DNA of 64,000 nt from an uncultured Eubacteriales bacterium (GTDB taxonomy: Bacteria > Acidobacteriota > Aminicenantia > Aminicenantales > Aminicenantaceae): contig CAYFXE010000002.1 in assembly GCA_964347035.1 (NCBI GenBank), forward strand, positions 17,692 through 81,691. The letters are read 5' to 3'. The position numbers were made by a program, and so were the translations under genes. The notes under the pieces were generated by a model. It was not told the origin of the DNA, searched no databases, and worked only from the letters and a program-made list of their open reading frames with translations. Numbering within the stretch: position 1 is the stretch's first letter; each line of letters starts with the position of its first letter. This document shows, one piece after another, positions 40,086-57,501 of this stretch.

Positions 40086-40110
40086 GAATGAAAATTAGAC
40101 AAAATCATTC
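40086..40110 (+). promoter_or_regulatory. distal conserved upstream motif (candidate activator site)
   Basis: GAATGAAAATTAGACAAAATCATTC is near-identical to GAATGAAATTTAGACAAATTC at 46700-46720. TTAGACA lies 152 nt upstream of the promoter GG. Confidence 0.55.
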
Positions 40111-40178
40111 ATCGTAGCCTTATTTCCTTTAATTATAATAATATACACTCAATTTGTCTCCTATTTTACCCCAATTAT

Positions 40179-40195
40179 GTCTAAATATTAGACAG
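40179..40195. promoter_or_regulatory. proximal palindromic upstream motif (candidate activator site)
   Basis: TGTCTAA-ATA-TTAGACA. TTAGACA lies 58 nt upstream of the promoter GG. Confidence 0.6.
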
Positions 40196-40245
40196 ATTTT
40201 TTTTATTTTAGCCTGATTTCCTGGGGAAACTGGGGATATAGGTCT

Positions 40246-40261
40246 TGGCACAAAAAATGCA
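40246..40261 (+). promoter_or_regulatory. sigma-54 (-24/-12) promoter motif
   Basis: TGGCACAAAAAATGCA, with GG and GC spaced 12 nt apart. It lies 81 nt upstream of the 40342 ATG. Confidence 0.75.
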
Positions 40262-40341
40262 CATTGGATATTGTTTGAACGTTATTACTATGTTTACTGA
40301 TAAATTAGGCATTTTATTTCAATTAAAAGAAGAGGTGTGCT

Positions 40342-40821
40342 ATGCATAAAAAGACATTTATTCTTTTTTGTGCAGCTTTGCTCATACCCTCGTTGATTTA
40401 CGCCCAGCCTGAAGAGACAGGACATATCAAAGGTGTCGTAATTAATCCTGAAGGAAAGCCTCTGCCAGGTGTGACGGTTATCCTGGAGTCTTCTGCTATC
40501 GTTGTCCCCTCATTGGAAACAATAACCGACGAGAACGGTTTGTATAGTTTTGCTTCGCTTCCGCCCGGCGAGTATGAGTTGATTTATTCTCAACCGCATA
40601 GGGAAAAAGTCATACAAAGCGGCATACAGCTTTCGGCAGGAATGACGGTGACCATCGATGTCAACATGACCTGGAGAGCGACAGAAGAATCCATCTTCGT
40701 CAAGGCAAAAGCGCCGACCATCCACATAAAAACCACGAAGGGTGTGATGTCGTTGAGCATTGAATTCCTCCAGTCGCTTTCTTTTTTCCTGAATCTTGTT
40801 TCGAATATGCCCCATGACTAG
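40342..40821 (+). CDS. stand-alone signal peptide + CarboxypepD_reg-like domain; truncated paralog of the N-terminus of the next gene (possible gene fragment)
   Basis: It aligns residue-for-residue with aa 1-~150 of the 40971 product ('EGKPLPGVTVILESSAIVVPSLETITDENG' vs 'EGEPLPGVTVILKSPAIVVPSLETITNESG'). It then terminates where the plug domain would start. Confidence 0.6.
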   Translation: MHKKTFILFCAALLIPSLIYAQPEETGHIKGVVINPEGKPLPGVTVILESSAIVVPSLETITDENGLYSFASLPPGEYELIYSQPHREKVIQSGIQLSAGMTVTIDVNMTWRATEESIFVKAKAPTIHIKTTKGVMSLSIEFLQSLSFFLNLVSNMPHD

Positions 40822-40875
40822 GCGGGATTTCTGTATTTAAGATGGATTTTTCGGAAAATCGGAGGATGTAAGGCT

Positions 40876-40891
40876 TGCCACGAAAAATGCG
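40876..40891 (+). promoter_or_regulatory. degenerate copy of the sigma-54 promoter (-24 GG changed to GC)
   Basis: TGCCACGAAAAATGCG sits at the position homologous to 40246-40261 within the duplicated unit. Confidence 0.35.
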
Positions 40892-40970
40892 AGTTTTATG
40901 TTATCCAAATACCGTGGATACATTTACACATAAAAGAGGCATTTTTTGAAACCAAAAAAGGAGGTGTTTT

Positions 40971-43805
40971 ATGCTTAGAAAAATTTCTATTCTATTCTGT
41001 GCGGTTTTACTGATTCCCGCGCTTATTCATGCCCAAGCTGGACAGACAGGAGCCATCAGCGGAACGGTTCTCACTCCTGAAGGAGAGCCTCTGCCCGGTG
41101 TGACGGTTATCCTGAAATCCCCCGCTATTGTAGTGCCTTCGCTCGAAACAATCACCAACGAGAGCGGCATGTATCGTTTTGTCTCGCTTTCTCCTGGTGA
41201 ATACGAGTTGACCTATTCTCTACCTGGAGTGGAAAGAGTGGTCCGACGTGGTATTCAGGTCTCAGTAGGAATGACGGTGACCCTCGATGTCAACATGACC
41301 TTGAGGACGACCGATGAATACATCGTCGTCGAAGGTCAAGCGCCGACCATTGACAAGATGAACACGAAAGGTGTGACCTCGTTGAATGTTGAATTCCTCC
41401 AGTCGATCCCGTCTGCCCGTCAATTGAATGATTATTTCAACATGGCTCCTGGGGTCACAGGCAGTGTTGCCCATGGAAGCTCGACCAAAGAGAATTCCTA
41501 CAACCTGGACGGAGTGAACATCGCTGATCCAGATACAGGGACCCAACTTGTCTTCTTTGGGATGGATGTTATGGAGGAGATCTCCATCCAGAGTGGTGGT
41601 CTTTCGGCTGAATACGGAAGTGTCAAGGGCGCTGTGATCAACGTCATTTCCAAATCAGGAGGAAATACTTACCACGGATCGGCCAGCTTCTATTACAACC
41701 ACGAGAAGCTCCAATCCGATAACACAGAAGGAACAGGAGTCGAGGGAACGAGTGGTAACCAGTGGGAGTACGAACCCGTGCTCACTTTCGGAGGCCCACT
41801 ACTCAGGGATAAGCTCTGGTTTTTCACCAACATGAGCTTCTGGAGATCCTCTTACTTTATCAACGGCTATCCAGCCGATGAACCTGACAACCCTATTGCC
41901 ATCAAAGAGATGAGACCTTATCCTTACCTCAAATTCACCTTCCAACCCAACCAGGCCAATAAATTCGTCGTTTCCTACAACTACTCCGACAGGAGATTAG
42001 ACCACAGATTTGCTGCTTGGAACCAGACAGAAGGTGTTACAGCCATCCAGAAAGGACCTGCCCATGTTTTCAATTTCCACTGGAACAGACAATTCAATGC
42101 GAACCTGTTTACGGAATTTAAAGTGGCTGTTATAAGAAGCAACCTGATATTCAAAGGAAAAGACCCTAACCAGGGATACAGGCTAGATGTCGAGACTGGG
42201 ATCTGGAGCGGGTCCTATTTCAGGGCCCTGGATGAGAATCCGCGTAACCGCTATCAGTTCAACGCCAACGCCACGGCCTTTGTCGATGACCTGGCCGGTT
42301 CACACGAGTTGAAGATCGGCGGCGAACTTCAGTTGGGAAGGACAGGTTGGAAAATCGACTTCAGCCGAGATCCTCAGACCGGATTAAGCTATATGATCGA
42401 TTTCCCGGAGTATTTTGAACAATTCGGCCTCTATAATTATGGCTATTACATCGTTGACTTCGAGAGGAAAGAAGGATTCAACAATGTCGGTCTGTATGTC
42501 AACGATGCCTGGTCCCCCACAAAATGGCTGACCGTGAACTTAGGAGCCAGGTTCGAGTACAACGCCACCATCTGGCCGCCGCAGATGGAGGAGGAAGGTC
42601 CTCAGGAGTTCATGGGTTTATCCTACAACCGGTCGATCACCGAGACGATGACGCCGATGAAATGGGTCAACCTCGTGCCAAGGCTGGGTATCATCATCGA
42701 TCCCTTCAAGAAAGGATCCACCCTTATTAAGGCTTCCTACGGCCGGTACATCCAGCCGAACATCACCGAATGGGTTAACCTCGGACATCCGAACGGATGG
42801 TTTTATTATGCGCAACGGTATGACTGGGAAGGCAACCTTGTTGGTGATCCTTATGCTATCAATCTCCCTGGTGGCCAGACGGTAGGATATCCAGGCTACA
42901 ACAACGGTAAACTCAAAGCCCCTTATGTGGACGAAGTCACCGTCGGGATTGAGAGGGAACTTTTCGAGAACTGGTCTTTAGGCCTCCGCTACATCAAAAA
43001 GTGGGATCGGAATCTCATCGAGAATGTGGATGCGGCTCAACTGGATATGGATGCCCTTCTGAATGATGGCGAACTCGTCTGGACCAACTGGGAACTCGTG
43101 ACAGCCATCGATCCTTACGATGACAAGGAAGTGACCTTCTGGGATTGGATCAATCCATATCTCCCTAACGAGGTTTACATCATCAATCCTCCAGGAGCAG
43201 AGAGGGATTATGATGGCCTGGAGTTCAAGCTGAGTAAACGGTACAGCGCCGGCTGGCAGGTCCATCTGACCTATGTCTACCAGAAATCCACGGGATTGAT
43301 CCCGACTGCCGATTCCCAATCCGGACAAGAAGCCAACGGTATGAGAGGTACATCCGGTCTTTATGAAAATCCCAATGCCCACTATAACGCCGAAGGGCGC
43401 TTTCCGAGAGAAAGACGTCACATGCTGAAGCTCCACGGTTTGGTGAAAGGGCCTCTGGGCATCAATCTTTCCGGATATTTTTCGGTGATGAGCGGCCGCC
43501 GGTACACGAGAAGAGTCTCCAGTGCTGGACTCGGCCTTAACTTGTACACAGATGTTGTGACCTTTGCCGAGCCATTAGGGGGTCAAGGATATCCGACTTT
43601 AACCAACCTGGATTTGAGATTGGAAAAAGAATTTCGCATCAAAGGCGTAAGACTGAGTGTCTTCGGTGATGCGTTCAACGTTTTTAACGACAACGCTGTG
43701 ACAGTAGTTCGGACGATCTCCAACAGAACGAGTTACGAATTCAAAGAGCCGAGAACAATCGTACCTCCGCGCATATTCCAACTCGGAGCCAAGATCGAGT
43801 TTTAA
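40971..43805 (+). CDS. CarboxypepD_reg-domain TonB-dependent-receptor-like outer-membrane protein (paralog 1)
   Basis: Signal peptide; N-terminal carboxypeptidase-regulatory-like beta-sandwich; plug-like 'ENSYNLDGVNIADP'; long beta-barrel region; C-terminal 'QLGAKIEF'. Confidence 0.8.
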   Translation: MLRKISILFCAVLLIPALIHAQAGQTGAISGTVLTPEGEPLPGVTVILKSPAIVVPSLETITNESGMYRFVSLSPGEYELTYSLPGVERVVRRGIQVSVGMTVTLDVNMTLRTTDEYIVVEGQAPTIDKMNTKGVTSLNVEFLQSIPSARQLNDYFNMAPGVTGSVAHGSSTKENSYNLDGVNIADPDTGTQLVFFGMDVMEEISIQSGGLSAEYGSVKGAVINVISKSGGNTYHGSASFYYNHEKLQSDNTEGTGVEGTSGNQWEYEPVLTFGGPLLRDKLWFFTNMSFWRSSYFINGYPADEPDNPIAIKEMRPYPYLKFTFQPNQANKFVVSYNYSDRRLDHRFAAWNQTEGVTAIQKGPAHVFNFHWNRQFNANLFTEFKVAVIRSNLIFKGKDPNQGYRLDVETGIWSGSYFRALDENPRNRYQFNANATAFVDDLAGSHELKIGGELQLGRTGWKIDFSRDPQTGLSYMIDFPEYFEQFGLYNYGYYIVDFERKEGFNNVGLYVNDAWSPTKWLTVNLGARFEYNATIWPPQMEEEGPQEFMGLSYNRSITETMTPMKWVNLVPRLGIIIDPFKKGSTLIKASYGRYIQPNITEWVNLGHPNGWFYYAQRYDWEGNLVGDPYAINLPGGQTVGYPGYNNGKLKAPYVDEVTVGIERELFENWSLGLRYIKKWDRNLIENVDAAQLDMDALLNDGELVWTNWELVTAIDPYDDKEVTFWDWINPYLPNEVYIINPPGAERDYDGLEFKLSKRYSAGWQVHLTYVYQKSTGLIPTADSQSGQEANGMRGTSGLYENPNAHYNAEGRFPRERRHMLKLHGLVKGPLGINLSGYFSVMSGRRYTRRVSSAGLGLNLYTDVVTFAEPLGGQGYPTLTNLDLRLEKEFRIKGVRLSVFGDAFNVFNDNAVTVVRTISNRTSYEFKEPRTIVPPRIFQLGAKIEF

Positions 43806-43830
43806 GGGCTAGTAAAACTCGGTCGGAAAA

Positions 43831-43861
43831 GGGAGGCTCTTTTGAGTCTCCCTTTTTTTTT
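43831..43861 (+). terminator. rho-independent terminator
   Basis: GGGAGGCTC-TTTT-GAGTCTCCC followed by a T9 run. Confidence 0.75.
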
Positions 43862-43885
43862 GATAGAATACCGGTTGATAAGTTA

Positions 43886-46360
43886 ATGAAAAAAAGACTT
43901 TGTTATCAGACTTTTATTTCTCTTACTGTTATCATTGCGCTTATTATGTTTGATGGCTGTCAGAAGGAAACAGAGACCTTCAGGATCACTGGAGAAACAG
44001 ATTACAATCTCCTCATCATAACTTTGGACACGACCCGGGCGGATCGAATCGGCGCTTATGGGTATGTGAAAGCAGAGACCCCTTATATTGACAGCCTTGC
44101 TCAATCCGGAATACTGTTTAAGAATTGTTATGCTTCTGTGCCTCTAACTCTTCCCTCACACGTGACTCTTTTTACCGGCAGAGAGCCGATCGCCCATGGA
44201 GTCCGGAACAACGGCACATATGTCTTAAGACAGGAAGAAAATACCCTGGCTGAAGCCATGCAGGGCCTGGGCTACAAGACTTTTGCCGTCATTGCCTCCT
44301 TCACTCTTCACTCGAAATTCGGGTTGAGCCAGGGGTTCGAGGTGTATGACGACTCTCTCGACTTCAACATAGCTGCTAACAACATAAGAACGGAAATCAG
44401 AGCAGATAAAGTGTATGCCAAGTTTAGAAGCTGGTTCGAGAAAAACCATGGTCAGAAATTTTTTTCCTGGGTTCACTTCTACGACCCGCACAGCCCCTAC
44501 GACCCTCCTCCTGAATATAAGTCAAGGTTCAGTGACGATCATTATGATGGGGAAATCGCCTATATGGATGGGTTCGTCGGCCGAATCATCCAAGACCTGA
44601 AGTCCAAAGGAATTCTGGATAAAACGTTGATCATCGTTGCCGGGGATCATGGTGAGGCCTTCGGAGAGCATAAAGAATACGGGCACGGTATTTTCTGCTA
44701 CGAAGAAAGTCTCAAAGTCCCGCTAATTGTCAGTAATCAAGTGATATTTAAGGAAGAGAACAGAGTGATTTCCCAAAGGGTTAAATTAGCAGACATCATG
44801 CCGACAGTGCTCGAGCTGTTTGGATCGGACACGCCTCAAAATATCCAGGGAGAAAGCCTAGCGCCGCTCCTGTTTAGAGGAGAGGGAAGTCATGAGACTC
44901 AGATTTATGTAGAAAGCCTGTTCGGGAAAGAAGACATGGGGTGGGCTCCCCTGACAGGAATGATTCTAGGCGATCATAAATACATCTCGCTGCCGACTCC
45001 TGAATTGTATGATTTAGCGAGCGACTCTGAGGAGAGGACTAATCTTTTTGAAGTGAAGACGGCTCTCGCCAAAGAAATCGATGAAAGACTGAGTCAGTAT
45101 ATTCAAGTCCAGGCAGAATCCGGAACCGGGACTCGAAGGTCGCTGACAGCAGCGGATAGAGAAAGATTGGAGTCCCTGGGCTACGTCTCTCCTTTTTCCG
45201 AAAAGTCAAAAAGAGAAATAGACCCTAAAAACGGAATCGATCTGTTGAATGATGTCCTTGCCGTCAAGGAGCTCATTGATGAGGGAAATCTAGAGGAGGC
45301 CAAAAAGAAGCTGCCCGATCTCCTGGAATCGGAAAAAGGAGTCGGGATCCCTCCGTTTTACGATAACCTAATCAACATGTACCGAGATCAGGGGGACATG
45401 GACAAGGCGATTCAGATCTTGGAAAAAGCCGTCCAACAGTTTCCGGCGAAAAAAAGATTCCGGGTCAACCTGGCCCTGTTCTATCTTGAGGCAGGCAAAG
45501 TTCAGGAGGCCGAAAGGCTGAGCTTAGCTATAGTCGACGAATATCCCGATGTTGCCCAAGCCCACAGCCTCCTCGCCTTGATATATAAAGGAAAGGGGGA
45601 GCTCGAAAAGGCTGTTTCTTATTATCTGAAGGCAAGGGAGATTGAGCCCGCCAATGTCTTGCTCAACCTGAATCTGGCCGAGGTAGAGTTAGAAAGAGGA
45701 ACTCGGCTCAAAGCTGTCGAGCTGCTTGATTCACTCGTCCAAAACGATGTGCTGATGGAAGAACCCGACAGCTCGAAAGTGAGGATTCGGCTGGGGGTTT
45801 TATTGGCGAGAGGAGGCGAGTATGAGCGGGCCATCGATCTCTTCTTAAAAATCATTGGAAATAACAATGCTGATGCCGAGGTCTGGACTCATCTAGGTCT
45901 ATCCTACTTCAACAAGGGAGATCTCGAAAAAGCCCAGGTTGCCTACGACGAGGCTCTGAAGTTGGACAGCAAAAATGCCTTGGCTCTGAGCAGTTTGGGA
46001 ACACTCAATCTTTCTTTATTCAGGGCCGAGAAAAACAGAGAATACTATAATCAGGCCCTTAACTTCTACCAGAGAGCCATCGAGACCGACCCGAATCTGG
46101 CCTCTGCTCACAACGGGATTGCTGTTGCCTACAGGTTTGCTAACAAGAATGAGTTGGCCGTTTCTCACTGGAAGAAAGCCATCGAAGCGAAGCCGGACTT
46201 TACCAACGCCTACATCAACCTTGGTATAACGTTGATTAACTTGAGACAAAAAGAAAAAGCTCTCGAGTACCTCCACCGCTGCCAGGAGAAATACTTCTCC
46301 CGTATGAACCGTGAAGATCAAAAACAACTCCTTGAATTAATCGCCGAAGCCAAGAACTAG
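43886..46360 (+). CDS. sulfatase-like (alkaline-phosphatase superfamily) enzyme fused to a long C-terminal TPR array (paralog 1)
   Basis: 'LLIITLDTTRADRIG', 'PLTLPSHVTLFTGR' and 'VAGDHGEAFGEH'. About 8 or more TPR-like repeats in the C-terminal half. Confidence 0.8.
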   Translation: MKKRLCYQTFISLTVIIALIMFDGCQKETETFRITGETDYNLLIITLDTTRADRIGAYGYVKAETPYIDSLAQSGILFKNCYASVPLTLPSHVTLFTGREPIAHGVRNNGTYVLRQEENTLAEAMQGLGYKTFAVIASFTLHSKFGLSQGFEVYDDSLDFNIAANNIRTEIRADKVYAKFRSWFEKNHGQKFFSWVHFYDPHSPYDPPPEYKSRFSDDHYDGEIAYMDGFVGRIIQDLKSKGILDKTLIIVAGDHGEAFGEHKEYGHGIFCYEESLKVPLIVSNQVIFKEENRVISQRVKLADIMPTVLELFGSDTPQNIQGESLAPLLFRGEGSHETQIYVESLFGKEDMGWAPLTGMILGDHKYISLPTPELYDLASDSEERTNLFEVKTALAKEIDERLSQYIQVQAESGTGTRRSLTAADRERLESLGYVSPFSEKSKREIDPKNGIDLLNDVLAVKELIDEGNLEEAKKKLPDLLESEKGVGIPPFYDNLINMYRDQGDMDKAIQILEKAVQQFPAKKRFRVNLALFYLEAGKVQEAERLSLAIVDEYPDVAQAHSLLALIYKGKGELEKAVSYYLKAREIEPANVLLNLNLAEVELERGTRLKAVELLDSLVQNDVLMEEPDSSKVRIRLGVLLARGGEYERAIDLFLKIIGNNNADAEVWTHLGLSYFNKGDLEKAQVAYDEALKLDSKNALALSSLGTLNLSLFRAEKNREYYNQALNFYQRAIETDPNLASAHNGIAVAYRFANKNELAVSHWKKAIEAKPDFTNAYINLGITLINLRQKEKALEYLHRCQEKYFSRMNREDQKQLLELIAEAKN

Positions 46361-46655: not shown

Positions 46656-46699
46656 ATACGCTCGTGTCTGTATTTTGAGCAAATTTCATGCGATTTAAT

Positions 46700-46720
46700 G
46701 AATGAAATTTAGACAAATTC
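46700..46720 (+). promoter_or_regulatory. distal conserved upstream motif
   Basis: GAATGAAATTTAGACAAATTC. TTAGACA lies 154 nt upstream of the promoter GG, compared with 152 nt at the 40246 promoter. Confidence 0.55.
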
Positions 46721-46796
46721 CTTCGTATATTGATTATTCCAAATAATTTCAGTAACTTAGAGTCTTTTCATCCCTTCTTTTTGCTGGGTTATGTAT

Positions 46797-46813
46797 AAAA
46801 AATAGACAAATCC
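46797..46813 (+). promoter_or_regulatory. proximal upstream half-site
   Basis: AAAAAATAGACAAATCC. ATAGACA lies 61 nt upstream of the promoter GG. Confidence 0.45.
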
Positions 46814-46861
46814 CTCCTTCAGTATCTGTATTCCCCTGAGGAAACCCTCTATGATCACGGT

Positions 46862-46877
46862 TGGCATAATTTTTGCT
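46862..46877 (+). promoter_or_regulatory. sigma-54 (-24/-12) promoter motif
   Basis: TGGCATAATTTTTGCT, with GG and GC spaced 12 nt apart. Confidence 0.75.
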
Positions 46878-50153: not shown

Positions 50154-52280
50154 ATGAGAAGAAATTTTCGATTTCCTGTTCTGTTTATCATCTTGATTGT
50201 TTTCTTGGTTTCTGTTCTTGGATTCTCGAAGACAGATGTCAAAAAATCAAAGTACAATTTATTGATAATCACCATCGATACCTTAAGGCCGGATAGACTG
50301 AGCTGTTACAACACAAAAAATGTTGAGACACCGAACATCGATAAGATTGCCCAGAGAGGAGTTCTGTTTACCAAGGCCTTTGCCCATACGCCGACAACCC
50401 TGCCTTCGCATACCAACATTCTCCTCGGGACAACGCCTCTTTATCATGGGATCCACGACAACTCGAATTTTATCGTCGACGAGGAATTCCTGACCTTAGC
50501 CGAACATTTAAAAAGTCATGGTTACGCCACTGCAGCCTTCGTTGGAGCCTTCCCGCTGGATTCGAGGTTCGGTTTGACCCAGGGCTTTGACGTTTACGAT
50601 GACAATTACGGAAGCAAGAGCCATCAGGAATTTTCTTATGTAGAGAGGAGAGCCGAAGTCGTTATCGACAAAGCCTTAGATTGGATACAGGAGAGGCAGA
50701 ATCCCTGGTTTCTGTGGGTTCACTGCTTCGATCCTCACCAGCGGTACGATCCTCCAGAGCCTTTCAAAAGTCAATTTCGAGGCCGCGCCTATGACGGAGA
50801 AGTGGCCTATGTGGACCATGCCTTAGGGCGATTGTTCGGCCTCCTTCAAGAAAAAGAGCATATGGATGAAACACTGATCATTTTCACTGCCGACCATGGC
50901 GAAGCTTTAGGGGAGCACGGGGAAAAGACACACGGGTATTTTGCCTACAACGCAACGATATGGGTTCCTCTGATTGTGTATTATCCGGGCCTCACACCAG
51001 GTCATGTCCATCAACCCGTCTGTCATGCGGATATTTTCCCCACGGTCTGTGATATCCTGGGATTAGAAAAACCTTCCTTTCTCCATGGACTCTCTCTTTT
51101 ACCCTTGATGGAAGGGAAAAAACTGGACAGCAGGATGATTTATTTCGAATCTCTGTATCCTTATTACACCCGAAGCTGGGCACCGCTCCGGGGTTTTATC
51201 CAGAGTAACGAAAAATACATCGACTCTCCGATCCCTGAATTATATAACCTGGAAGAAGACTTTGATGAGCATGAAAACCTTGCTCAAACAAAAACCCTAA
51301 GTCAGTACAGCAAGAGACTTTCAAGATTAATCGAGGAACAGGTATATGCTGATAAAAAAAAGACCACGAAACGAGTCGATCGAGAGGCCCTCGAGAAGCT
51401 TAAGAGTCTGGGCTACGTTTCTGGTACCCAAAGCCCCCCAAAAAAAAGCTTCACTGAGAAGGATGACCTGAAAACCCTTCTTCCTTATCAAAACAAATTG
51501 ATGGAGGCCATGCGGGCCTATGACGGCGCTCGTTTTGAAGAAAGTATATCCATCTTAAAAAACATCATTAAGGAAAGAAAAGATCTCTCTCAAGCCTACT
51601 CTCATCTGGCCACAGTCTATAAAGAACAAAGAAGATTACAAGAGGCGATGGACATTCTCGAGCAAGGATTGGAAAACAATCCAGAGAGCTACAGGATCAT
51701 CGAAACCTACGGGATCATACTCACTGAAGCCGGAGAGTATGATCGGGCACTCGAGATCCTCCAGGATGGTTTGAAGTACATTGATTATGATCCTGAGATA
51801 TGGAATTATCTGGGAGTGGCCTACTGGAAAAAGGGAGACTTCCAGAATGCCCATGAGGCCTTCCAGAAGGTTCTGGCATTGGACGACAACTACTCCATCG
51901 TTTTTAATAATCTTGGGTCTCTGTATCTATCTCAGTCTTTAAAAACTAGAAATGTCGATGATCTAAGACAGGCCATCCGGAATTTTAAGAAAGCCATAGA
52001 ACTCGATCCCGGGTATGCAGAGGCGTACAATGGCTTAGGAAGTGCTTACGGAAATGCTGGGAATTTGGAGGCAGCGATTCAAAGTTGGGAAAGAGCCCTA
52101 GAACTCAAGCCGGATTATGATTTTCCACTTTATAATCTCGGGCTTTCCTATTTAAGCAAAGGGAACAAAAGCAGAGCTTTGGGCTATTTCGACAGATATA
52201 AAGCAAAGCATTACCAAAGGCTTTCCTCTGAAGAGAAGAAAAAACTCGACGACCTCATCCAGAGATGTCAGGATAGATAA
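50154..52280 (+). CDS. sulfatase-like enzyme fused to C-terminal TPR array (paralog 2)
   Basis: The likely ATG is at 50154, giving signal peptide MRRNFRFPVLFIILIVFLVSVLG. Motifs 'LLIITIDTLRPDRL', 'PTTLPSHTNILLGT' and 'TADHGEALGEHGE', plus TPR repeats. Confidence 0.8.
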   Translation: MRRNFRFPVLFIILIVFLVSVLGFSKTDVKKSKYNLLIITIDTLRPDRLSCYNTKNVETPNIDKIAQRGVLFTKAFAHTPTTLPSHTNILLGTTPLYHGIHDNSNFIVDEEFLTLAEHLKSHGYATAAFVGAFPLDSRFGLTQGFDVYDDNYGSKSHQEFSYVERRAEVVIDKALDWIQERQNPWFLWVHCFDPHQRYDPPEPFKSQFRGRAYDGEVAYVDHALGRLFGLLQEKEHMDETLIIFTADHGEALGEHGEKTHGYFAYNATIWVPLIVYYPGLTPGHVHQPVCHADIFPTVCDILGLEKPSFLHGLSLLPLMEGKKLDSRMIYFESLYPYYTRSWAPLRGFIQSNEKYIDSPIPELYNLEEDFDEHENLAQTKTLSQYSKRLSRLIEEQVYADKKKTTKRVDREALEKLKSLGYVSGTQSPPKKSFTEKDDLKTLLPYQNKLMEAMRAYDGARFEESISILKNIIKERKDLSQAYSHLATVYKEQRRLQEAMDILEQGLENNPESYRIIETYGIILTEAGEYDRALEILQDGLKYIDYDPEIWNYLGVAYWKKGDFQNAHEAFQKVLALDDNYSIVFNNLGSLYLSQSLKTRNVDDLRQAIRNFKKAIELDPGYAEAYNGLGSAYGNAGNLEAAIQSWERALELKPDYDFPLYNLGLSYLSKGNKSRALGYFDRYKAKHYQRLSSEEKKKLDDLIQRCQDR

Positions 52281-52301
52281 ATATTCAACAGGGATAGGAT
52301 C

Positions 52302-54386
52302 ATGAAGATTTATAAATGGATATGTTGTTTTTTTATTATTCTTCTTTTTATCCGGCCGATTTACCCTGCAGAAAAGATGAAAGAAGAAGGTCTTTCCGAA
52401 AAGTACAGAGAATGGCTTAAAGTAACGAGTTACATCATCCTTCCCCAGGAAAAAGATGTTTTTTTGCAGCTTGCTTCAGATAGAGACAGGGATCTCTTCA
52501 TCCAGGCCTTCTGGCGCCACCGGGATCCTACTCCAGGAACGCCTCAGAATGAATACAAACAGGAGCATTTGAAACGTTTCGCCTACGCGAATGCCTATTA
52601 TAAGCGAGGAACTCCCCGCGAGGGATGGATGACCGATATGGGAAAAATACATATCATCCTCGGGCCTCCTTCGAGCATCGAGAGGTTTGACAGCGAGGCA
52701 GGTATCCATCCTTGTCAAGTGTGGTATTATTATGGAGACAAGACAAAGGGACTTCCTACTTATTTTGCCATCATTTTCTTTCAACGAGGAGGAGCTGGAG
52801 AATATAAACTGTACAACCCCACTACTGACGGCCCTGGCAGTCTTTTGATCGGAGGGTATGGGCGGGGTGTGGCGGATTACCGAGCGGTATACCAGAAGAT
52901 CAAGGAACTCGCTCCGAGTTTGGCCGGAGTGGCCATCTCGATGATCCCTGGTCAGATCCCCCCTGATTATCAACCCACTCCCAGGAATAACATCATCTTG
53001 GCCAATATTTTTGAGTCCCCGAAAAAGGAGTTAACTCCAACCTATGCCACTCACTTCTTGAACTATAGAGGGATCGTCAGTACCGAGTATTTGACCAATT
53101 ACATCGAGAGCTTCGGTCTTGTGGCTTTGACTCGAGATCCTGTTCTGGATATGAATTTTGTTCATTTCTCCATCAATCCCAAAAGCTTTTCTGCTGATTA
53201 CTTTGAGCCCAAAGATCAGTATTTCTGTAATTTTCAGCTCAACGTCAGTGTTAGGCACGATCAGGAAGTGATCTTTCAGTATTCGAAGGATTTTCCTTTC
53301 TATTTCGAACCTTCCGCTATGGAGAGGATAAAAGGAAAAGGAATTTCCATCCAGGATTCTTTCCCTCTGATCGAAGGAAAGTACAGGTTGATTGTTCTCA
53401 TTCAAAATTCCGTGGGCAAAGAATTCAGTGTTTTCGAAAAAGATGTTAATGTTCCAGAGTCAACGGGATTACCCGGGATAATCAGTCCTGTTCTCGGCTT
53501 CAAAGCTGAGCAACAAAGAGATCCTCTGCACATGCCTTTCAAAGTTGCAGAAACAAAAATACTCGTTGACCCGGAAAATACGATTTCTCCATCTGAAGAA
53601 GTGGTTCTGTTATTTAATCTCGTCAACATATCAGATGAGATGAGGGAATCAGGAAAGATCAGGATTCTCGTCAACGGCCTTGGTCACAGGGACCCGATAA
53701 AAAAATCTTTTACCCTCGAACTGAAAACATACCCCTCTAAAAAAACTCTGGTCATCACCCACTCCATCCCGGCTAGAGAGTTTTCCCCGGATTACTATGA
53801 GATGAGTTTAATCCTTGAAGACGGTGAAGGAAATACAATCGACGAGAAAAAAACACAATTTATCCTTTCTTCCCAAGCAGAGGTTCCTCACCCCGTTACC
53901 CTGGCCAAGTCATTCCCTGTATCAAACAACTTTTTGTATTCTTATTCTTTTGCCTACCAATATGACAAAGTGAAAAACTTCCAGAGCGCAGAGGAATATT
54001 ATGAAGATGCTTACAGGCTGAAACCCGATTACAACAGGGGAATTGTTGAATATTCGAACTTCCTGCTTAAGATAAGAAAATTCGAGAAAAGCCTGGATTT
54101 TATCGAAAAAGTCAGCGACGATGAGGAAATGAAATTTCAGTATCACCTGGTAAAAGGGAAAGCTTTACTTGGAATGGAAAAGTATCAAGAGGCTATAGAA
54201 TCATTGCTCGAGGGGAATAAAATCTACAACAGCGATGTTGGACTCCTAAACTCTCTTGGTCTATGTTACTACAAAATCGGCAGAAAAGAAGAAGCCTTGG
54301 ATGTCCTCAAAGCTTCCCTTCGGTTAAATGCCAATCAGAAGGATATCAAAAAGCTCATCGATGACATCGAGAAAAACCACGATTAA
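52302..54386 (+). CDS. GWxTD-domain protein with C-terminal TPR repeats
   Basis: Signal peptide; 'REGWMTDMGKIHIILGPP' is the GWxTD signature; TPR-like C-terminus. It starts 22 nt after the sulfatase-like gene. Confidence 0.75.
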   Translation: MKIYKWICCFFIILLFIRPIYPAEKMKEEGLSEKYREWLKVTSYIILPQEKDVFLQLASDRDRDLFIQAFWRHRDPTPGTPQNEYKQEHLKRFAYANAYYKRGTPREGWMTDMGKIHIILGPPSSIERFDSEAGIHPCQVWYYYGDKTKGLPTYFAIIFFQRGGAGEYKLYNPTTDGPGSLLIGGYGRGVADYRAVYQKIKELAPSLAGVAISMIPGQIPPDYQPTPRNNIILANIFESPKKELTPTYATHFLNYRGIVSTEYLTNYIESFGLVALTRDPVLDMNFVHFSINPKSFSADYFEPKDQYFCNFQLNVSVRHDQEVIFQYSKDFPFYFEPSAMERIKGKGISIQDSFPLIEGKYRLIVLIQNSVGKEFSVFEKDVNVPESTGLPGIISPVLGFKAEQQRDPLHMPFKVAETKILVDPENTISPSEEVVLLFNLVNISDEMRESGKIRILVNGLGHRDPIKKSFTLELKTYPSKKTLVITHSIPAREFSPDYYEMSLILEDGEGNTIDEKKTQFILSSQAEVPHPVTLAKSFPVSNNFLYSYSFAYQYDKVKNFQSAEEYYEDAYRLKPDYNRGIVEYSNFLLKIRKFEKSLDFIEKVSDDEEMKFQYHLVKGKALLGMEKYQEAIESLLEGNKIYNSDVGLLNSLGLCYYKIGRKEEALDVLKASLRLNANQKDIKKLIDDIEKNHD

Positions 54387-54387
54387 T

Positions 54388-54414
54388 CGTCTAATTTGTT
54401 AAAAAATTAGACAC
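54388..54414. promoter_or_regulatory. inverted-repeat upstream motif (candidate activator site)
   Basis: CGTCTAAT-N11-ATTAGACAC. TTAGACA lies 59 nt upstream of the promoter GG. Confidence 0.55.
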
Positions 54415-54464
54415 TTTTCCGGCAAATAATTCCCGATTTTCTTCATTACCCCGAGAATATCGCT

Positions 54465-54480
54465 TGGCATGTATTTTGCT
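54465..54480 (+). promoter_or_regulatory. sigma-54 (-24/-12) promoter motif
   Basis: TGGCATGTATTTTGCT, with GG and GC spaced 12 nt apart. Confidence 0.75.
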
Positions 54481-54615: not shown

Positions 54616-55299
54616 ATGCAGGATGACGTCAAAGAGGTTTTAAACATCATTAGGGAAAGGATTAAAAATGATCCGACGAATTCGAAGATGGTCTGTACCT
54701 ACGGCATCCTGCTCATTGAAGTTGGGCATTATGATGCGGCTGTGGAGATTCTGCGAGAGGGCTTGACGTACAAACAGGATGATGCAGAATTGTGGAGTTA
54801 TTTGGGATTGGCTTACTGGCGGAAGGATGATCAAAAAAATGCGATCACCTCTTACCAGAAAGCCATTCTTTTAAACAAGCATTACCCAGTTGTTTTTTTT
54901 AATCTAGCGTCTCTTTATCTTTCCCGATACGTCGAGTCGAAAAACGAAGTCTATTTCAAAAACTCCGTTAAAAATTTTAAGAAGGCGATCGAACTCGATC
55001 CCTGCTATGCTTCAGCCTACAATGGTTTGGGAACTGCGTATGTCAAAGCAAACAATATCGAAGCGGCCATCAATTGTTGGGAAAAGACTATCAAGATCAA
55101 ACCTGAGTTCTCATCTGCCGTTTATAATCTAGCTCTCGCTTATCTGGCCAAAGGGAATAGCACCAAGGCTTTGAAGTTCTTTAACAAGTACAAGAAGAAT
55201 CACTATGAACATCTGACTCAGGGAGAAAAAGACCAGTTCGATGCTTTGATCAAGAAATGCCAGAACAACAGGAAAAGAGGTGACACCGCCTACGGATAA
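54616..55299 (+). CDS. stand-alone TPR protein, paralogous to the C-terminal TPR module of the sulfatase-like proteins
   Basis: 'FKKAIELDPCYASAYNGLGTAY...AAINCWEKTIKIKPEF...YNLALAYLAKGN' vs 'FKKAIELDPGYAEAYNGLGSAY...AAIQSWERALELKPDY...YNLGLSYLSKGN' in the 50154 product. GGAGG SD site; no signal peptide. Confidence 0.75.
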   Translation: MQDDVKEVLNIIRERIKNDPTNSKMVCTYGILLIEVGHYDAAVEILREGLTYKQDDAELWSYLGLAYWRKDDQKNAITSYQKAILLNKHYPVVFFNLASLYLSRYVESKNEVYFKNSVKNFKKAIELDPCYASAYNGLGTAYVKANNIEAAINCWEKTIKIKPEFSSAVYNLALAYLAKGNSTKALKFFNKYKKNHYEHLTQGEKDQFDALIKKCQNNRKRGDTAYG

Positions 55300-55406
55300 G
55301 ACATTCATGACCGTGATTGGAACAGTGCAATCGAGAAAGATGAACAAGAAGTAACGGAGGAAAGGCTATAAAGGGAGGCCTCAAAAAATTTAAAAAGGAG
55401 GGATGA

Positions 55407-55469
55407 ATGAAGAAGATGATCCTCCTCATCTTGCTTCTCATCCTGCTGTTCTTATCTTTAGGAATTTAA
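55407..55469 (+). CDS. candidate 20-aa hydrophobic micro-protein
   Basis: AAAGGAGGG lies 4 nt upstream of the ATG. The product is MKKMILLILLLILLFLSLGI. It was not in the ORF track because it is under 60 aa. Confidence 0.3.
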   Translation: MKKMILLILLLILLFLSLGI

Positions 55470-55544
55470 TCGAACAGCAGGTGTCATTAGGGGATTAGAT
55501 AATGCTCCCCTGAGTATTATCTGAGCTATTTGGAGTGGCCGTCT

Positions 55545-56084
55545 CTAATTCTTTAGTTCCTGGCCGCAGTGGGGGCAGCACCGCCAGGTGCTCTCCACCG
55601 GCTTGTCGCACTCAGGGCAAACAGCCTGAAGCTTAGTCCCGCAATGAGGACAAAACGTAAAGCCCATCTCGACAGGGTTTTGGCAGTTCGGACAGGGTTG
55701 TGTCACTTGGACTGTTTTGGGTGCGGATATCGTGTCAGCCCGGACAATCAGATAAATCAATAATCCTATCAGATTGCCGATAAAGACAAGCAGTGCCCAC
55801 AACACACCGTTCATGCCTCGGCGCTCGGCATCCCGGTAAACCCAGACAATCACAAAAATCCAGAGGACGAGCAGCGCCAGCGTCACCACCCGGAGCGGAT
55901 TAAAATGGATAAGCCCCATTGGACCTATATGGATGGACCGAATGTCCGGCGTCCGGACGGCATGCCAGACACTGGGGAATATACCTAAAGGCGAGAGGAT
56001 AAAAGGTGTCATTTGCAGGACAATTAACAAGATAAGGACGACCAGCAGAATAAGCCCGACTGTTTTTGCGGTTGAAGTCGCCAT
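55545..56084 (-). CDS. membrane protein with C-terminal double zinc-ribbon
   Basis: Three TM helices, including a 'WVYRDAERRGMNGVLWALLVF' PLD-nuclease-N-like segment. C-terminal 'CPNC...CPHC...CPEC...CPHC'. Confidence 0.65.
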   Translation of the reverse strand: MATSTAKTVGLILLVVLILLIVLQMTPFILSPLGIFPSVWHAVRTPDIRSIHIGPMGLIHFNPLRVVTLALLVLWIFVIVWVYRDAERRGMNGVLWALLVFIGNLIGLLIYLIVRADTISAPKTVQVTQPCPNCQNPVEMGFTFCPHCGTKLQAVCPECDKPVESTWRCCPHCGQELKN

Positions 56085-56155
56085 GTCATACCTCCTATTC
56101 CATGCCAGGATCCGATCCCGAGCACGGCATTGAAAATCTCGGCACTGTTGCCTGA

Positions 56156-56647
56156 TTAAGTCATGTTTAAATAGTGGCTTCTCCCTCGGAATTTCCTGAG
56201 AATAAGCGGTGAAAAAAAGAGCATCACCGCATTCTGGATCATAAGCGATAGAGTTACTATTGCTTGTAATGAGAGGATCTCTTCTGCGGCCAGCTCCTTC
56301 AGTAAAGGCAGTATCAGTATCACAGTTAGGACAACGAGAGATACTAAGGCCAGCCAGATATACGCAGGAATGGATGTGGCCTTGATTCGACTGATAAACC
56401 CTTTCTCATTCGGATAAGGAGTCTTTATGGCGGTGTGACACATGAGTTGAGTTCGATGTATCAACTCTTCAGAGGGAACAGGAGCTTTTGTCTCCTGAAG
56501 AAAAAGCCGGATTTTTTTCAGATCCTCTTCGAAACAGGCACAATCTTCACATTGGGCAACATGCTTCTCAACCAGGGACAACCTGTCTTCCTCCAGGGTT
56601 TCATCTGATAAGTCGATAAGCCATCGTTGGATGTCTTTACACTTCAT
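56156..56647 (-). CDS. zf-HC2-type anti-sigma factor
   Basis: N-terminal 'C...H...C..C' motif ('EKHVAQCEDCACFEED') plus two TM helices. ATGA overlap with the sigma gene. Confidence 0.75.
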   Translation of the reverse strand: MKCKDIQRWLIDLSDETLEEDRLSLVEKHVAQCEDCACFEEDLKKIRLFLQETKAPVPSEELIHRTQLMCHTAIKTPYPNEKGFISRIKATSIPAYIWLALVSLVVLTVILILPLLKELAAEEILSLQAIVTLSLMIQNAVMLFFSPLILRKFRGRSHYLNMT

Positions 56648-57270
56648 GTTGTCCTCTCTTCCAGGGAATAGGGTTTGGGTTTATAGGCGGAAAGATCTCG
56701 TTGGAGCCCTTTCACTGCCCGGTACATCAAGGATTTGACCGTCCCTATCGGTATCTTGAGCATCTCGCTGATTTCTGTTTGTTTGAACCCCTCGATTTCC
56801 TTGAGAACAAAAATGAGACGTTGGCGTTCGGGAAGTTGGGTTAGGGCTTTTGATAGAGCCATACTCAAATCTTTCTGATCCTCCGCTTTAGAATTTTTGC
56901 ATACCTTTTTTCCCGTCGATACAGATACTATGTTTTCTCCTTGCTTGAAAGCTTTGTATTTTTGGAGGAGGAATAGCCGCCTGATCCTTTTCTTCCGAAG
57001 AGCATCGCGATGCAGGTTGGCGGCTATGGTCAAGATCCAGGATATGAATGTACTTTCTTTCGAGATTTTCGGAAAATTTTTTACCACTCGCAACCATGTC
57101 TCCTGAAAAAGATCTTCTGCCTCCCCTCTGTTTTGTGTCAGATAATATGCAAAACGGAAGACTGCGGTTTTGTGTTCATCGTACAGGGCATCGAATTCGG
57201 CGGAGCTAAGAGAATCTGTTTTCTGGACAGAATTTCCAATCTCAGCCTTCAACACATTCTCCATTCGCAT
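56644..57270 (-). CDS. ECF-type sigma-70 family sigma factor
   Basis: Region 2 reads 'AEDLFQETWLRVVKNF' and region 4 reads 'GFKQTEISEMLKIPIGTVKSLMYRAVKGL'. Confidence 0.85.
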   Translation of the reverse strand: MRMENVLKAEIGNSVQKTDSLSSAEFDALYDEHKTAVFRFAYYLTQNRGEAEDLFQETWLRVVKNFPKISKESTFISWILTIAANLHRDALRKKRIRRLFLLQKYKAFKQGENIVSVSTGKKVCKNSKAEDQKDLSMALSKALTQLPERQRLIFVLKEIEGFKQTEISEMLKIPIGTVKSLMYRAVKGLQRDLSAYKPKPYSLEERTT

Positions 57271-57480
57271 CCAGTTTCATTAGATAGGACGTTTGAGACA
57301 GGAAATAGTTTTGGTCAAAAAAAATTCTGTTAATTCCTTCAATTTCATGATTTTGAAAAAAGCAATGATTTTTAGTTTCGATCACTCCAATTATAAAAAA
57401 ATGATGACGAAGATCAAACCAGAAGAAATGAGATTTAATTCACCAGATTGGACATTGATGGGAAGAAGGTTAGATGGGAA

Positions 57481-57501
57481 ATTGTCTAATTTTTAGACAA
57501 T
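57481..57501. promoter_or_regulatory. perfect palindromic upstream motif (candidate activator/regulator site)
   Basis: ATTGTCTAA-TTT-TTAGACAAT. It lies in the divergent region between the ECF sigma gene and the third receptor-like gene, 101 nt upstream of the promoter GG. Confidence 0.6.

What the first reader, a model, noticed from the sequence alone, without database searches (positions are those of the whole stretch)
40086..57501. Shared TGTCTAA/TTAGACA upstream motif at fixed distance from the -24 element (candidate UAS of an undescribed regulon)
A TTAGACA-type word lies 58, 61 and 59 nt upstream of the promoter GG at the 40246, 46862 and 54465 promoters. These are 40189-40195 inside the palindrome TGTCTAAATATTAGACA, 46802-46808, and 54407-54413 inside GTCTAAT-N11-ATTAGAC. 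A second, longer conserved box, GAATGAAA(A/T)TTAGACAAA, lies 152 and 154 nt upstream at the first two promoters. The 57593 promoter has the perfect palindrome ATTGTCTAATTTTTAGACAAT 101 nt upstream. The 32064 promoter has related words (GTCTAAAATTC at 31955, TTTTAGAAT at 32044). Conserved distance and dyad symmetry are what bacterial enhancer-binding-protein sites look like. I do not recognise the motif as a described one.
Basis: partly seen in the sequence, partly recalled or inferred. Interest (0 to 1): 0.8.

Follow-up and report, generated by a model that had tools for sequence, protein, structure and literature searches.

The report
Enhancer sites of an Aminicenantes sigma-54 regulon
A conserved 17-base palindrome (TGTCTAA-N3-TTAGACA) lies upstream of all five sigma-54-type promoters in this window and of dozens of related promoters in uncultured Aminicenantes bacteria. 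It is most likely the docking site of the activator protein encoded next to it, which switches on outer-membrane receptor and sulfatase genes.

Summary
All five TGGYAY-N5-WTGCW promoters in the window carry a 17-bp dyad, TGTCTAA-N3-TTAGACA, with 0 to 3 mismatches. The dyad starts 69, 71 or 69 nt (three promoters) or 111 nt (two promoters) upstream of the promoter GG.

In about 1 Mb of related Aminicenantes DNA, 51 of 125 distinct sigma-54-like sites have a dyad with at most 2 mismatches upstream. None of 125 have one in the downstream control stretch. Of 45 near-perfect dyads, 42 have such a promoter within 700 bp; the other three are a promoter variant or a contig end.

The dyads usually come in pairs directly after the stop codon of an FHA-GAF-AAA+-HTH activator gene (window 38188-40059). 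Its recognition helix, (T/S)RQTLDNKI, is the same in all 49 orthologues examined.

The true invariant is the 93 ±1 bp spacing between the two dyads. The distance to the promoter varies from 69 to about 349 bp between lineages.

The second activator (62645) has a different helix and is not syntenic. Four receptor orthologues outside activator neighbourhoods have sigma-54-like promoters (one with CGG for TGG) with a different dyad, so the motif is regulon-specific.

Verdict: this is a previously undescribed upstream activating sequence of a known kind. Binding has not been tested.

The parts
31954..31970 (.). Asymmetric box CGTCTAAAATTCATACA. It is the reverse orientation of the TGTATGA-N3-TTAGACA type and starts 111 nt upstream of the GG of the 32064 promoter.
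   Evidence: L081 has TGTCTAAAATTCATACA at the same 111-nt distance. The TCATACA half is unchanged in L081 and L082.
32064..32079 (+). Sigma-54-type -24/-12 promoter TGGCATCTTTTTTGCA. It precedes the operon of a 289-aa protein, a LolA-like protein, a porin-like protein and an HpnN-like MMPL transporter (32125-38045).
38188..40059 (+). Candidate cognate activator with FHA, GAF, AAA+ (GAFTGA, Walker A) and Fis-type HTH domains. Its recognition helix reads TRQTLDNKI.
40085..40101 (.). Distal asymmetric box TGAATGAAAATTAGACA. It starts 26 nt after the activator's stop codon.
40118..40148 (.). T-rich element at the midpoint of the dyad pair. Its role is unknown; DNA bending is one possibility.
40178..40194 (.). 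Proximal perfect dyad TGTCTAAATATTAGACA. It lies 93 bp from the distal box and starts 69 nt before GG.
40246..40261 (+). Sigma-54-type promoter TGGCACAAAAAATGCA. It precedes a CarboxypepD_reg ORF, a 944-aa TonB-like receptor and a sulfatase-TPR gene (40342-46360).
46699..46715 (.). Distal asymmetric box TGAATGAAATTTAGACA.
46732..46762 (.). T-rich element at the midpoint of the second dyad pair.
46792..46808 (.). Proximal dyad TGTATAAAAAATAGACA (2 mismatches). It lies 93 bp from the distal box and starts 71 nt before GG. The L081 orthologue has the perfect form at the same distance.
46862..46877 (+). Sigma-54-type promoter TGGCATAATTTTTGCT. It precedes a 981-aa receptor, a sulfatase-TPR gene and a GWxTD-TPR gene (47095-54386).
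54397..54413 (.). Single dyad TGTTAAAAAATTAGACA (2 mismatches), starting 69 nt before GG. It is identical in L082 and L091 although the flanks differ.
54465..54480 (+). Sigma-54-type promoter TGGCATGTATTTTGCT. It precedes the TPR protein gene 54616-55299.
57483..57499 (.). Single perfect dyad TGTCTAATTTTTAGACA, starting 111 nt before GG.
57593..57608 (+). Sigma-54-type promoter TGGTACATAAATTGCA. It precedes the 1011-aa TonB-like receptor gene 57903-60938.

Best explanation
The 17-bp dyad TGTCTAA-N3-TTAGACA, and its asymmetric variant TGTATGA-N3-TTAGACA, is the upstream activating sequence of a sigma-54 regulon in Aminicenantes.

Inferred mechanism:
- Dimers of the FHA-GAF-AAA+-HTH activator encoded at 38188-40059 bind the dyads through their C-terminal Fis-type helix-turn-helix.
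- Next to the activator gene the sites form a rigid pair 93 bp apart, about nine helical turns, so both lie on the same face of the DNA. A conserved T-rich element sits at the midpoint. This layout would bring two bound dimers together to seed the active AAA+ ring.
- The ring then reaches the closed sigma-54 holoenzyme at the -24/-12 promoter by DNA looping. This tolerates the observed 69 to about 349 bp of variable distance.
- ATP hydrolysis and the GAFTGA loop then open the promoter.
- Activity is probably gated through the N-terminal FHA domain, which reads phospho-threonine; Ser/Thr kinase genes neighbour the activator gene in most relatives. The GAF domain may add a second input.

In this genome the targets are five operons. 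Three encode TonB-like outer-membrane receptors, two of them together with sulfatase-TPR and GWxTD-TPR proteins. One encodes a TPR protein. One encodes a LolA-like/HpnN-like lipid-export system.

Shown here: the sites, their statistics, their conservation, and their linkage to sigma-54-type promoters and to the activator gene. Inferred: which protein binds, the oligomer assembly, and the signal.
For: 1. All five sigma-54-type promoters in the window carry the dyad upstream. Per-promoter shuffle frequencies are 0 to 27 in 2000.
2. In window + L001 + L081-L165, 51 of 125 distinct sigma-54-like sites have a dyad with at most 2 mismatches at -300 to -20. None of 125 have one at +20 to +300.
3. Of 45 distinct dyads with at most 1 mismatch, 42 have a sigma-54-like site within 700 bp. 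The other three are a GTGC promoter variant or a contig end.
4. In 1.19 Mb around unrelated activators from other phyla there is no dyad with at most 2 mismatches.
5. Footprinting: dyads stay identical while flanks diverge.
6. Linkage to the activator: of 50 non-redundant orthologue loci (one, L166, a distant 34% relative), about 30 have a dyad with at most 2 mismatches in the 600 bp after the stop codon. A subclade with a 625-aa activator keeps a single degenerate YGNYAAAAAAATAGACA site.
7. The recognition helix (T/S)RQTLDNKI is the same in all 49 orthologues. The single outlier L166 (SRDTLYQKI) has no dyad.
8. The activator has GAFTGA and a Walker A motif.
9. The 7-3-7 geometry and the position 70 to 300 bp upstream match how NtrC-family activators bind. 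This rests on established knowledge, not on a test here.
10. The motif is not a general accessory of sigma-54 promoters. Four receptor orthologues with no FHA-GAF activator within 10 kb have a sigma-54-like promoter (three match the pattern; L173 reads CGGTAT-N5-TTGCT) with a different motif built on ATCCAA-N4-TTGGAT, tandem in two of them. One of them (L171) comes from the same assembly as the dyad-bearing locus L086.
Against: No binding or expression data exist.

The related loci were collected through the activator gene, so the co-occurrence of activator and dyad is partly built into the sample.

The one sample that did not depend on the activator (4 receptor orthologues) contained no TGTCTAA dyad. 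Control of distant promoters in trans therefore rests on the window and its three close relatives (L081, L082, L091).

Eleven orthologue loci have a different downstream gene and no dyad in the 600 bp after the stop codon; in some of them a dyad lies elsewhere in the locus.

A 93-bp separation of paired sites is not the textbook arrangement for this activator family. The central element matches the IHF consensus in only 3 of 35 pairs.

A second conserved box, TTTYCC..GGGGAAAT, shows that at least one more factor may act at these promoters.
Confidence: 0.72

Rival explanations
1. The dyad is a genuine regulatory site at sigma-54 promoters, but a different DNA-binding protein reads it. Candidates are the response-regulator-type activator at 62645-63934, or an unlinked HTH protein such as the small Fis-type protein seen in related loci.
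For: The perfect dyad at 57483 lies only about 5 kb from the kinase/regulator pair at 61300-63934. In 13 related loci a 119-130 aa Fis-type HTH protein is encoded next to the dyads, and where its promoter was examined (L110, L151, L157) it is a dyad-bearing sigma-54 promoter. The sampling could not separate 'activator present' from 'dyad present'.
Against: The 62645 product has a different recognition helix, SRASLYRRL, against TRQTLDNKI. Its receiver domain has a homologue in only 1 of the 50 dyad-bearing loci, and its kinase in 3 of 50. The small Fis-type protein has no homologue in the window and has a different helix, KYTTLxEKV. The dyads sit directly after the FHA-GAF activator gene in about 30 distinct loci.
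Confidence: 0.17
2. The dyad is the operator of a GntR-type repressor, the 120-aa protein at 29924-30286. GTCTA...TAGAC resembles GntR/HutC-type half-sites. On this view the repressor would modulate these promoters rather than activate them.
For: The half-sites resemble GT-N-TA/TA-N-AC operator cores (from memory, not tested). A GntR gene lies about 1.7 kb upstream of the 31954 site, and the same arrangement is seen in L081 and L082.
Against: A GntR homologue is present in only 4 of the 50 dyad-bearing loci. No dyad with up to 3 mismatches lies upstream of the GntR gene itself, where such regulators usually autoregulate. Positions 70 to 300 bp upstream of a -24/-12 promoter suit an enhancer, not an operator that blocks the polymerase.
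Confidence: 0.04
3. The shared words are leftover similarity between duplicated receptor-sulfatase cassettes and have no function of their own.
For: The 40246 and 46862 upstream regions precede paralogous cassettes. They share box order and the 93-bp spacing.
Against: Between the boxes the two regions are not alignable, while the boxes are kept. The same dyads are kept at orthologous promoters in genomes whose activator is only 56-70% identical. They also occur at promoters of unrelated genes, namely the 32064 operon and the 54465 TPR gene.
Confidence: 0.02

Closest known systems
NtrC enhancer sites at glnAp2 (TGCACCA-N3-TGGTGCA) and NtrC-family Fis-type HTH domains. The nearest solved structures are Aquifex NtrC1 (4l4u, 4l5e) and NtrC4 (2m8g).
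   Same: A 17-bp 7-3-7 dyad read by a dimeric C-terminal Fis-type HTH. More than one site per enhancer. Located roughly 70-300 bp upstream of a -24/-12 promoter. The AAA+ domain carries GAFTGA. The closest matches among solved structures are NtrC1, NifA and ZraR.
   Different: The half-site sequence is unrelated. The paired sites are 93 bp apart rather than about three helical turns. The input domains are FHA + GAF, not a receiver domain. No NCBIfam equivalog model reaches its cut-off; the best is nifA at 410 bits against a cut-off of 529.
NifA upstream activating sequence, TGT-N10-ACA
   Same: Outer TGT...ACA triplets. The activator contains a GAF domain. The site acts from a distance at a sigma-54 promoter.
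   Different: Here the spacing is TGT-N11-ACA and the inner bases CTAA/TTAG are also conserved. The genes controlled have no link to nitrogen fixation.
FHA-domain enhancer-binding proteins of Myxococcus xanthus
   Same: An FHA domain at the N-terminus of a sigma-54 activator, implying control by Ser/Thr kinases. A homologue of the kinase gene found beside one orthologue occurs in 43 of 87 related loci.
   Different: A different phylum, an added GAF domain, different targets, and no shared binding motif known to me.
The idea that sigma-54 controls the bacterial exterior (Francke et al. 2011, PMC3162934; located by title only, content from my own knowledge)
   Same: The targets here are outer-membrane receptors, a LolA-like/HpnN-like lipid exporter, and secreted or periplasmic TPR and sulfatase proteins.
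   Different: That work did not, to my knowledge, cover Aminicenantes or this motif. A 2025 regulon survey (PMC12316311) mentions neither Acidobacteria nor Aminicenantes.

Membership tests
Sigma-54 (-24/-12) promoter | GG and GC elements with the exact spacing, TGGCAC-N5-TTGCW | tested here: met
   Five exact matches to TGGYAYNNNNNWTGCW against 0.37 expected.
Sigma-54 (-24/-12) promoter | Intergenic and oriented towards a downstream gene | tested here: met
   All five are intergenic, on the + strand, and upstream of + strand genes.
Sigma-54 (-24/-12) promoter | Transcription depends on sigma-54 and an activator; rpoN is present in the genome | not testable with these tools
   No expression data. 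rpoN was not looked for outside the window. Two sigma-54 activators are encoded in the window.
Upstream activating sequence of a bacterial enhancer-binding protein | Dyad-symmetric site of a size suited to a dimeric Fis-type HTH | tested here: met
   17-bp 7-3-7 dyad, perfect at 40178 and 57483. The position tables give A-TGTCTAA-aaa-TTAGACA-A.
Upstream activating sequence of a bacterial enhancer-binding protein | Specifically located upstream of -24/-12 promoters, at about 70-300 bp | tested here: met
   51 of 125 upstream regions against 0 of 125 downstream controls. 42 of 45 near-perfect dyads have a sigma-54-like site within 700 bp.
Upstream activating sequence of a bacterial enhancer-binding protein | Conserved at orthologous promoters while the flanks diverge | tested here: met
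Upstream activating sequence of a bacterial enhancer-binding protein | A cognate activator with a sigma-54 contact loop and a DNA-binding domain that varies together with the site | tested here: inconclusive
   GAFTGA and HTH_8 are present. The helix is the same in all 49 orthologues, and the one divergent homologue lacks the dyad. However, the sample was chosen through the activator gene, so this is not an independent test.
Upstream activating sequence of a bacterial enhancer-binding protein | Binding is demonstrated and the site is needed for activation | not testable with these tools
   Needs gel shift, footprinting, DAP-seq or a reporter assay.
NtrC box / NifA UAS (specific named motifs) | The sequence TGCACCA-N3-TGGTGCA (NtrC) or TGT-N10-ACA (NifA) | tested here: not met
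   The half-sites are TGTCTAA/TTAGACA and the outer triplets are spaced N11. Only the geometry is shared.
GntR-type operator | Linked GntR gene, and a site in that gene's own promoter region | tested here: not met
   GntR homologue in 4 of 50 dyad-bearing loci. No dyad upstream of 29924.
IHF site (for the central element between paired dyads) | Match to WATCAANNNNTTR at a fixed position | tested here: not met
   At most 1 mismatch at the midpoint in only 3 of 35 pairs. The element is conserved and T-rich but is not a clear IHF site.

The most novel reading that the evidence does not exclude
The paired dyads may form a new type of enhancer module. It would be a rigid unit of about 110 bp: dyad, T-rich centre, dyad, with 93 ±1 bp between dyad starts. 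The unit would fold so that two activator dimers are pre-assembled. It works at any distance from the promoter, and in some genomes it would serve two divergent sigma-54 promoters at once. Its activator would be switched by Ser/Thr-kinase signalling through an FHA domain. On this reading the module would be the master switch for receptor-plus-sulfatase cassettes, which resemble polysaccharide-utilisation loci, in an uncultured sediment phylum.
Probability: 0.3. Interest if true: 0.55.

Novelty: new member of a known kind. Interest (0 to 1): 0.42.

Why it matters
Aminicenantes are abundant in anoxic sediments and have no cultured, genetically tractable member, so their regulation is known only from sequence. 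This result gives a concrete regulatory unit that can be tested: one activator family, one 17-bp site and a defined set of target operons.

The unit links Ser/Thr-kinase/FHA signalling and sigma-54 to outer-membrane uptake receptors and sulfatase-like enzymes. Those genes are the ones most relevant to how these organisms feed on sulfated organic matter.

It also shows two more things. Sigma-54 promoters in front of TonB-like receptors are common in this lineage. Different activators use clearly different dyads, so regulons can be mapped in metagenomes by motif alone. The strict 93-bp pairing is an unusual architectural rule that is worth a biochemical look.

Tried and rejected
- Literature search for TGTCTAA/TTAGACA together with sigma-54, and for Aminicenantes with sigma-54, TonB and sulfatase: nothing relevant.
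- Exact look-up of the activator protein in the contig index failed. The window's copy differs by one residue from the database entry P0001 (compare).
- The genome-contig scan with the full activator was swamped by the generic AAA+ peptide FLDEIGDM and gave only one true orthologue, L001. This was fixed by scanning metagenomes with an alignment of the N-terminal region only.
- IHF reading of the central element: not supported.
- Helical phasing of the dyad-to-promoter distance: by eye, the values show no consistent phase; this was not computed.
- Sigma-70 promoter or terminator reading of the 40000-40400 region: no terminator, and only weak promoter-like hits.
- Rfam scan of the whole window: no RNA family.
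- The 25418/25478 matches to the dyad at 3 mismatches are the arms of an unrelated long inverted repeat.
- Sample independent of the activator, through orthologues of the 57903 receptor: sigma-54-like promoters were found but with a different dyad. That dyad is not enriched in the window, and the response-regulator activator near one of those loci is only 39% identical to the window's.
- The GntR and 62645 rivals were tested by co-occurrence and rejected as the main explanation.


Full report
**What is in the window**

The pattern TGGYAYNNNNNWTGCW occurs exactly five times, against 0.37 expected by chance. All five matches are on the + strand, at 32064, 40246, 46862, 54465 and 57593. All are intergenic and face downstream genes.

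The genes behind them are as follows:
- An operon encoding a 289-aa protein, a LolA-like protein, a porin-like protein and an HpnN-like MMPL transporter (32125-38045).
- Two cassettes, each with a CarboxypepD_reg/OMP_b-brl_4 TonB-like receptor and a sulfatase-TPR protein; one also has a GWxTD-TPR protein (40342-46360 and 47095-54386).
- A TPR protein (54616-55299).
- A third receptor (57903-60938).

Two sigma-54 activators are encoded. One is an FHA-GAF-AAA+-HTH_8 protein at 38188-40059 (+). The other is a receiver-AAA+-HTH_8 protein at 62645-63934 (-), next to a histidine kinase gene.

**Checking the observation**

- 46802-46808 reads ATAGACA.
- The outer arms at 54389/54406 are 10 nt apart, not 11.

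The words are parts of a 17-bp dyad, TGTCTAA-N3-TTAGACA:

| Position | Sequence | Mismatches |
|---|---|---|
| 40178-40194 | TGTCTAAATATTAGACA | 0 |
| 57483-57499 | TGTCTAATTTTTAGACA | 0 |
| 46792-46808 | TGTATAAAAAATAGACA | 2 |
| 54397-54413 | TGTTAAAAAATTAGACA | 2 |
| 31954-31970 | CGTCTAAAATTCATACA | 3 |

In both cases it lies exactly 93 bp upstream of the proximal dyad.

With up to 3 mismatches the dyad occurs 11 times in the window, against 2.58 expected. Seven of the 11 lie upstream of the five promoters. In dinucleotide shuffles of each upstream region, the observed match or better appeared in 0 to 27 of 2000 shuffles. From the dyad start to the first G of GG the distances are 69, 71 and 69 nt for three promoters and 111 nt for the other two.

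**Related sequences**

The activator has more than 120 full-length relatives at 64-100% identity. Those that carry a name are from Aminicenantes. I collected loci in two ways: by exact look-up of seven of these proteins, and by a metagenome scan with an alignment of the N-terminal FHA-GAF region only.

The gene order is conserved: activator, often a small ORF, receptor, then usually a sulfatase-TPR gene. In many loci a Ser/Thr kinase-TPR gene lies divergently just upstream of the activator. A homologue of that kinase is present in 43 of 87 loci.

Fifty loci remained after removing duplicates; one of them, L166, is a distant 34% relative. About 30 have a dyad with at most 2 mismatches within 600 bp after the activator's stop codon. 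Typically this is a distal asymmetric box TGTATGAAAWTTAGACA and a proximal near-perfect dyad. A subclade with a 625-aa activator keeps one degenerate site, YGNYAAAAAAATAGACA. Eleven loci have a different, often convergent, downstream gene and no dyad in that 600-bp stretch. Several of them carry a dyad elsewhere in the locus.

**Statistics across the lineage**

The set is the window plus L001 and L081-L165, about 1.01 Mb before duplicates are removed. It contains 125 distinct sigma-54-like sites.
- In the -300 to -20 interval, 51 have a dyad with at most 2 mismatches (20 perfect, 13 with one mismatch, 18 with two). In the +20 to +300 control interval, none of the 125 do.
- In the other direction, 42 of 45 distinct dyads with at most one mismatch have a sigma-54-like site within 700 bp. 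The three exceptions are a GTGC promoter variant and two contig ends.
- In 1.19 Mb around unrelated activators from other phyla there is no dyad with at most 2 mismatches.
- Alignments of orthologous promoters show the dyad unchanged while the flanks have diverged.

**Architecture**

The distance from dyad to promoter is conserved only among close relatives. It is 69-71 nt in the window, L081, L082 and L091. Elsewhere it is 83, 93, 111-139, 153-186, 203-223 or 337-349 nt.

The spacing inside a pair is what stays constant. Of 51 neighbouring pairs of dyad-like sites, 40 are 91-94 bp apart and 25 are exactly 93 bp apart. A T-rich element (YTATC..TTTATTTTCWRTARRTTCCAAT) sits at the midpoint. It matches the IHF consensus in only 3 of 35 pairs, so I leave its role open.

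The asymmetric half-site TGTATGA is itself conserved. The site upstream of the 32064 promoter is this same box in the opposite orientation. In L098, L110, L151 and L157, dyads are found upstream of sigma-54-like promoters on both strands. This suggests that the pair lies between two divergent promoters.

**Which protein binds**

The recognition helix of the FHA-GAF activator, (T/S)RQTLDNKI, is the same in all 49 orthologues. The only divergent homologue (L166, SRDTLYQKI) has no dyad. The protein has GAFTGA and a Walker A motif.

The 62645 activator has a different helix, SRASLYRRL. Its receiver domain has a homologue in only 1 of the 50 dyad-bearing loci, and its kinase in 3 of 50. A 120-aa GntR (29924-30286) was considered because GTCTA/TAGAC resembles GntR-type half-sites. 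It is present in only 4 of 50 loci and has no dyad upstream of its own gene. A small Fis-type HTH protein encoded beside the dyads in 13 related loci is absent from the window.

The loci were found through the activator gene, so these co-occurrence numbers are not an independent test.

**A sample that does not depend on the activator**

Four orthologues of the 57903 receptor (62-78% identical) lie in loci with no FHA-GAF activator within 10 kb. Three have a match to the sigma-54 promoter pattern upstream. The fourth (L173) has a close variant, CGGTAT-N5-TTGCT, read by eye. None carries the TGTCTAA dyad. Instead they share a different motif built on ATCCAA-N4-TTGGAT, present as two tandem copies in L170 and L171 and in more degenerate form in L172 and L173.

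One of these loci (L171) comes from the same assembly as L086, which carries the TGTCTAA pair next to its activator. So the motif is not a general accessory of sigma-54 promoters in this lineage; it marks one regulon. Regulon membership also changes over time: the 57593 promoter belongs to it in this genome but not in more distant ones. The ATCCAA dyad is not enriched in the window.

**Interpretation**

The best-supported reading is that the dyad is the upstream activating sequence of the FHA-GAF activator. A rigid two-site module sits next to the activator gene, and single sites sit at more distant members of the regulon. The mechanism follows the established NtrC-family scheme: dimers bind the dyads, an AAA+ ring assembles, the DNA loops, and the GAFTGA loop remodels the sigma-54 closed complex. 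That scheme is inferred here, not shown.

The FHA domain and the neighbouring kinase genes suggest Ser/Thr phosphorylation as the input. This too is an inference.

**Comparison with known systems**

- It shares its geometry (a 7-3-7 dyad) with NtrC sites, and its outer TGT...ACA with NifA sites. The sequence and the N11 spacing fit neither.
- No NCBIfam equivalog model reaches its cut-off.
- The nearest solved structures are Aquifex NtrC1 and NtrC4, NifA and ZraR.
- I found no description of the motif in the searchable literature.

**Verdict**

This is a new member of a known kind, an activator enhancer, with an unusual strict 93-bp pairing rule. I put about 0.95 on it being a functional site tied to sigma-54 promoters, and about 0.72 on the 38188 product being the binder. 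Interest is moderate, 0.42.

Noticed in passing
window 40217-40229, 46830-46845; related 54415-54430, 57501-57515: A second conserved box lies between the dyad and the -24/-12 element: TTTCCTGGGGAAA and ATTCCCCTGAGGAAAC. Related forms TTTTCCG(G)CAAATAAT follow directly after the 54397 and 57483 dyads. In relatives it reads (ATTA)TTTYC-N-GGGGAAAT(AAT). GGGAAA occurs in 17 of 53 dyad-bearing upstream regions against 4 of 52 dyad-less ones. Its position varies and its binder is unknown.
   Followed up: partly
window 40118-40148 and 46732-46762; L-loci: A conserved T-rich element (YTATC..TTTATTTTCWRTARRTTCCAAT) sits exactly midway between the paired dyads. It is not a convincing IHF site: only 3 of 35 pairs match the consensus with at most 1 mismatch.
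   Followed up: partly
L170:9600-9650, L171:9570-9620, L172:9590-9640, L173:9660-9700: Orthologues of the 57903 receptor elsewhere have a sigma-54-like promoter preceded by a different motif built on ATCCAA-N4-TTGGAT, tandem in L170 and L171. This is probably the enhancer of another, unidentified activator. The motif is not enriched in the window.
   Followed up: partly
L110, L151, L157 (minus strand downstream of the activator); also L093, L094, L098, L113, L120, L137, L140, L147, L160, L165: A 119-130 aa protein with a C-terminal Fis-type HTH (…FNGNQ..AKFLG.KYTTL.EK.K…) is encoded beside the activator. In L110, L151 and L157 it sits behind a sigma-54 promoter that carries the dyads. There is no homologue in the window. 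It could be a co-regulator or a competitor.
   Followed up: partly
L086/L089/L113/L118/L120/L123/L125/L127/L130/L136/L141/L148 around 8500-9800: A Ser/Thr kinase-TPR gene is the divergent neighbour of the FHA-GAF activator in most relatives; a homologue is present in 43 of 87 loci. The 64-kb window has none, and the HpnN-like MMPL operon lies upstream instead.
   Followed up: partly
window about 25409-25436 and 25476-25503: An inverted repeat of about 27-28 bp, perfect by eye (AAGGGGTCGCGTCTCAACATTTGACATT / its complement), with a loop of about 40 nt. It lies between two minus-strand genes, the amino-acid permease 23974-25401 and the ORF 25511-25867. There is no Rfam match. It is unrelated to the dyad family.
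   Followed up: no
window 26071-26077 and 27689-27695: Two isolated TTAGACA words in intergenic DNA (ATTAGACAAAGGAATGATTATTC and CTTAGACAATG). Neither has a sigma-54-like promoter or a dyad partner nearby.
   Followed up: no
window 40342-40821: A 159-aa ORF consisting only of a signal-peptide-like N-terminus and a CarboxypepD_reg domain precedes the 944-aa receptor. The same arrangement is seen in L082 (176 aa) and L087 (142 aa). Other relatives have unrelated small ORFs of 51-139 aa between promoter and receptor.
   Followed up: no
window 55545-57270 (-): A trio of ECF sigma factor, zf-HC2 anti-sigma factor and double zinc-ribbon membrane protein lies between the 54465 and 57593 units. It is conserved in L082.
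   Followed up: no
window 57903 (start of the receptor gene): The database protein P0121 is 100% identical but has 991 aa, against 1011 aa for the ORF here. The true start codon may therefore lie about 20 codons downstream of 57903.
   Followed up: no
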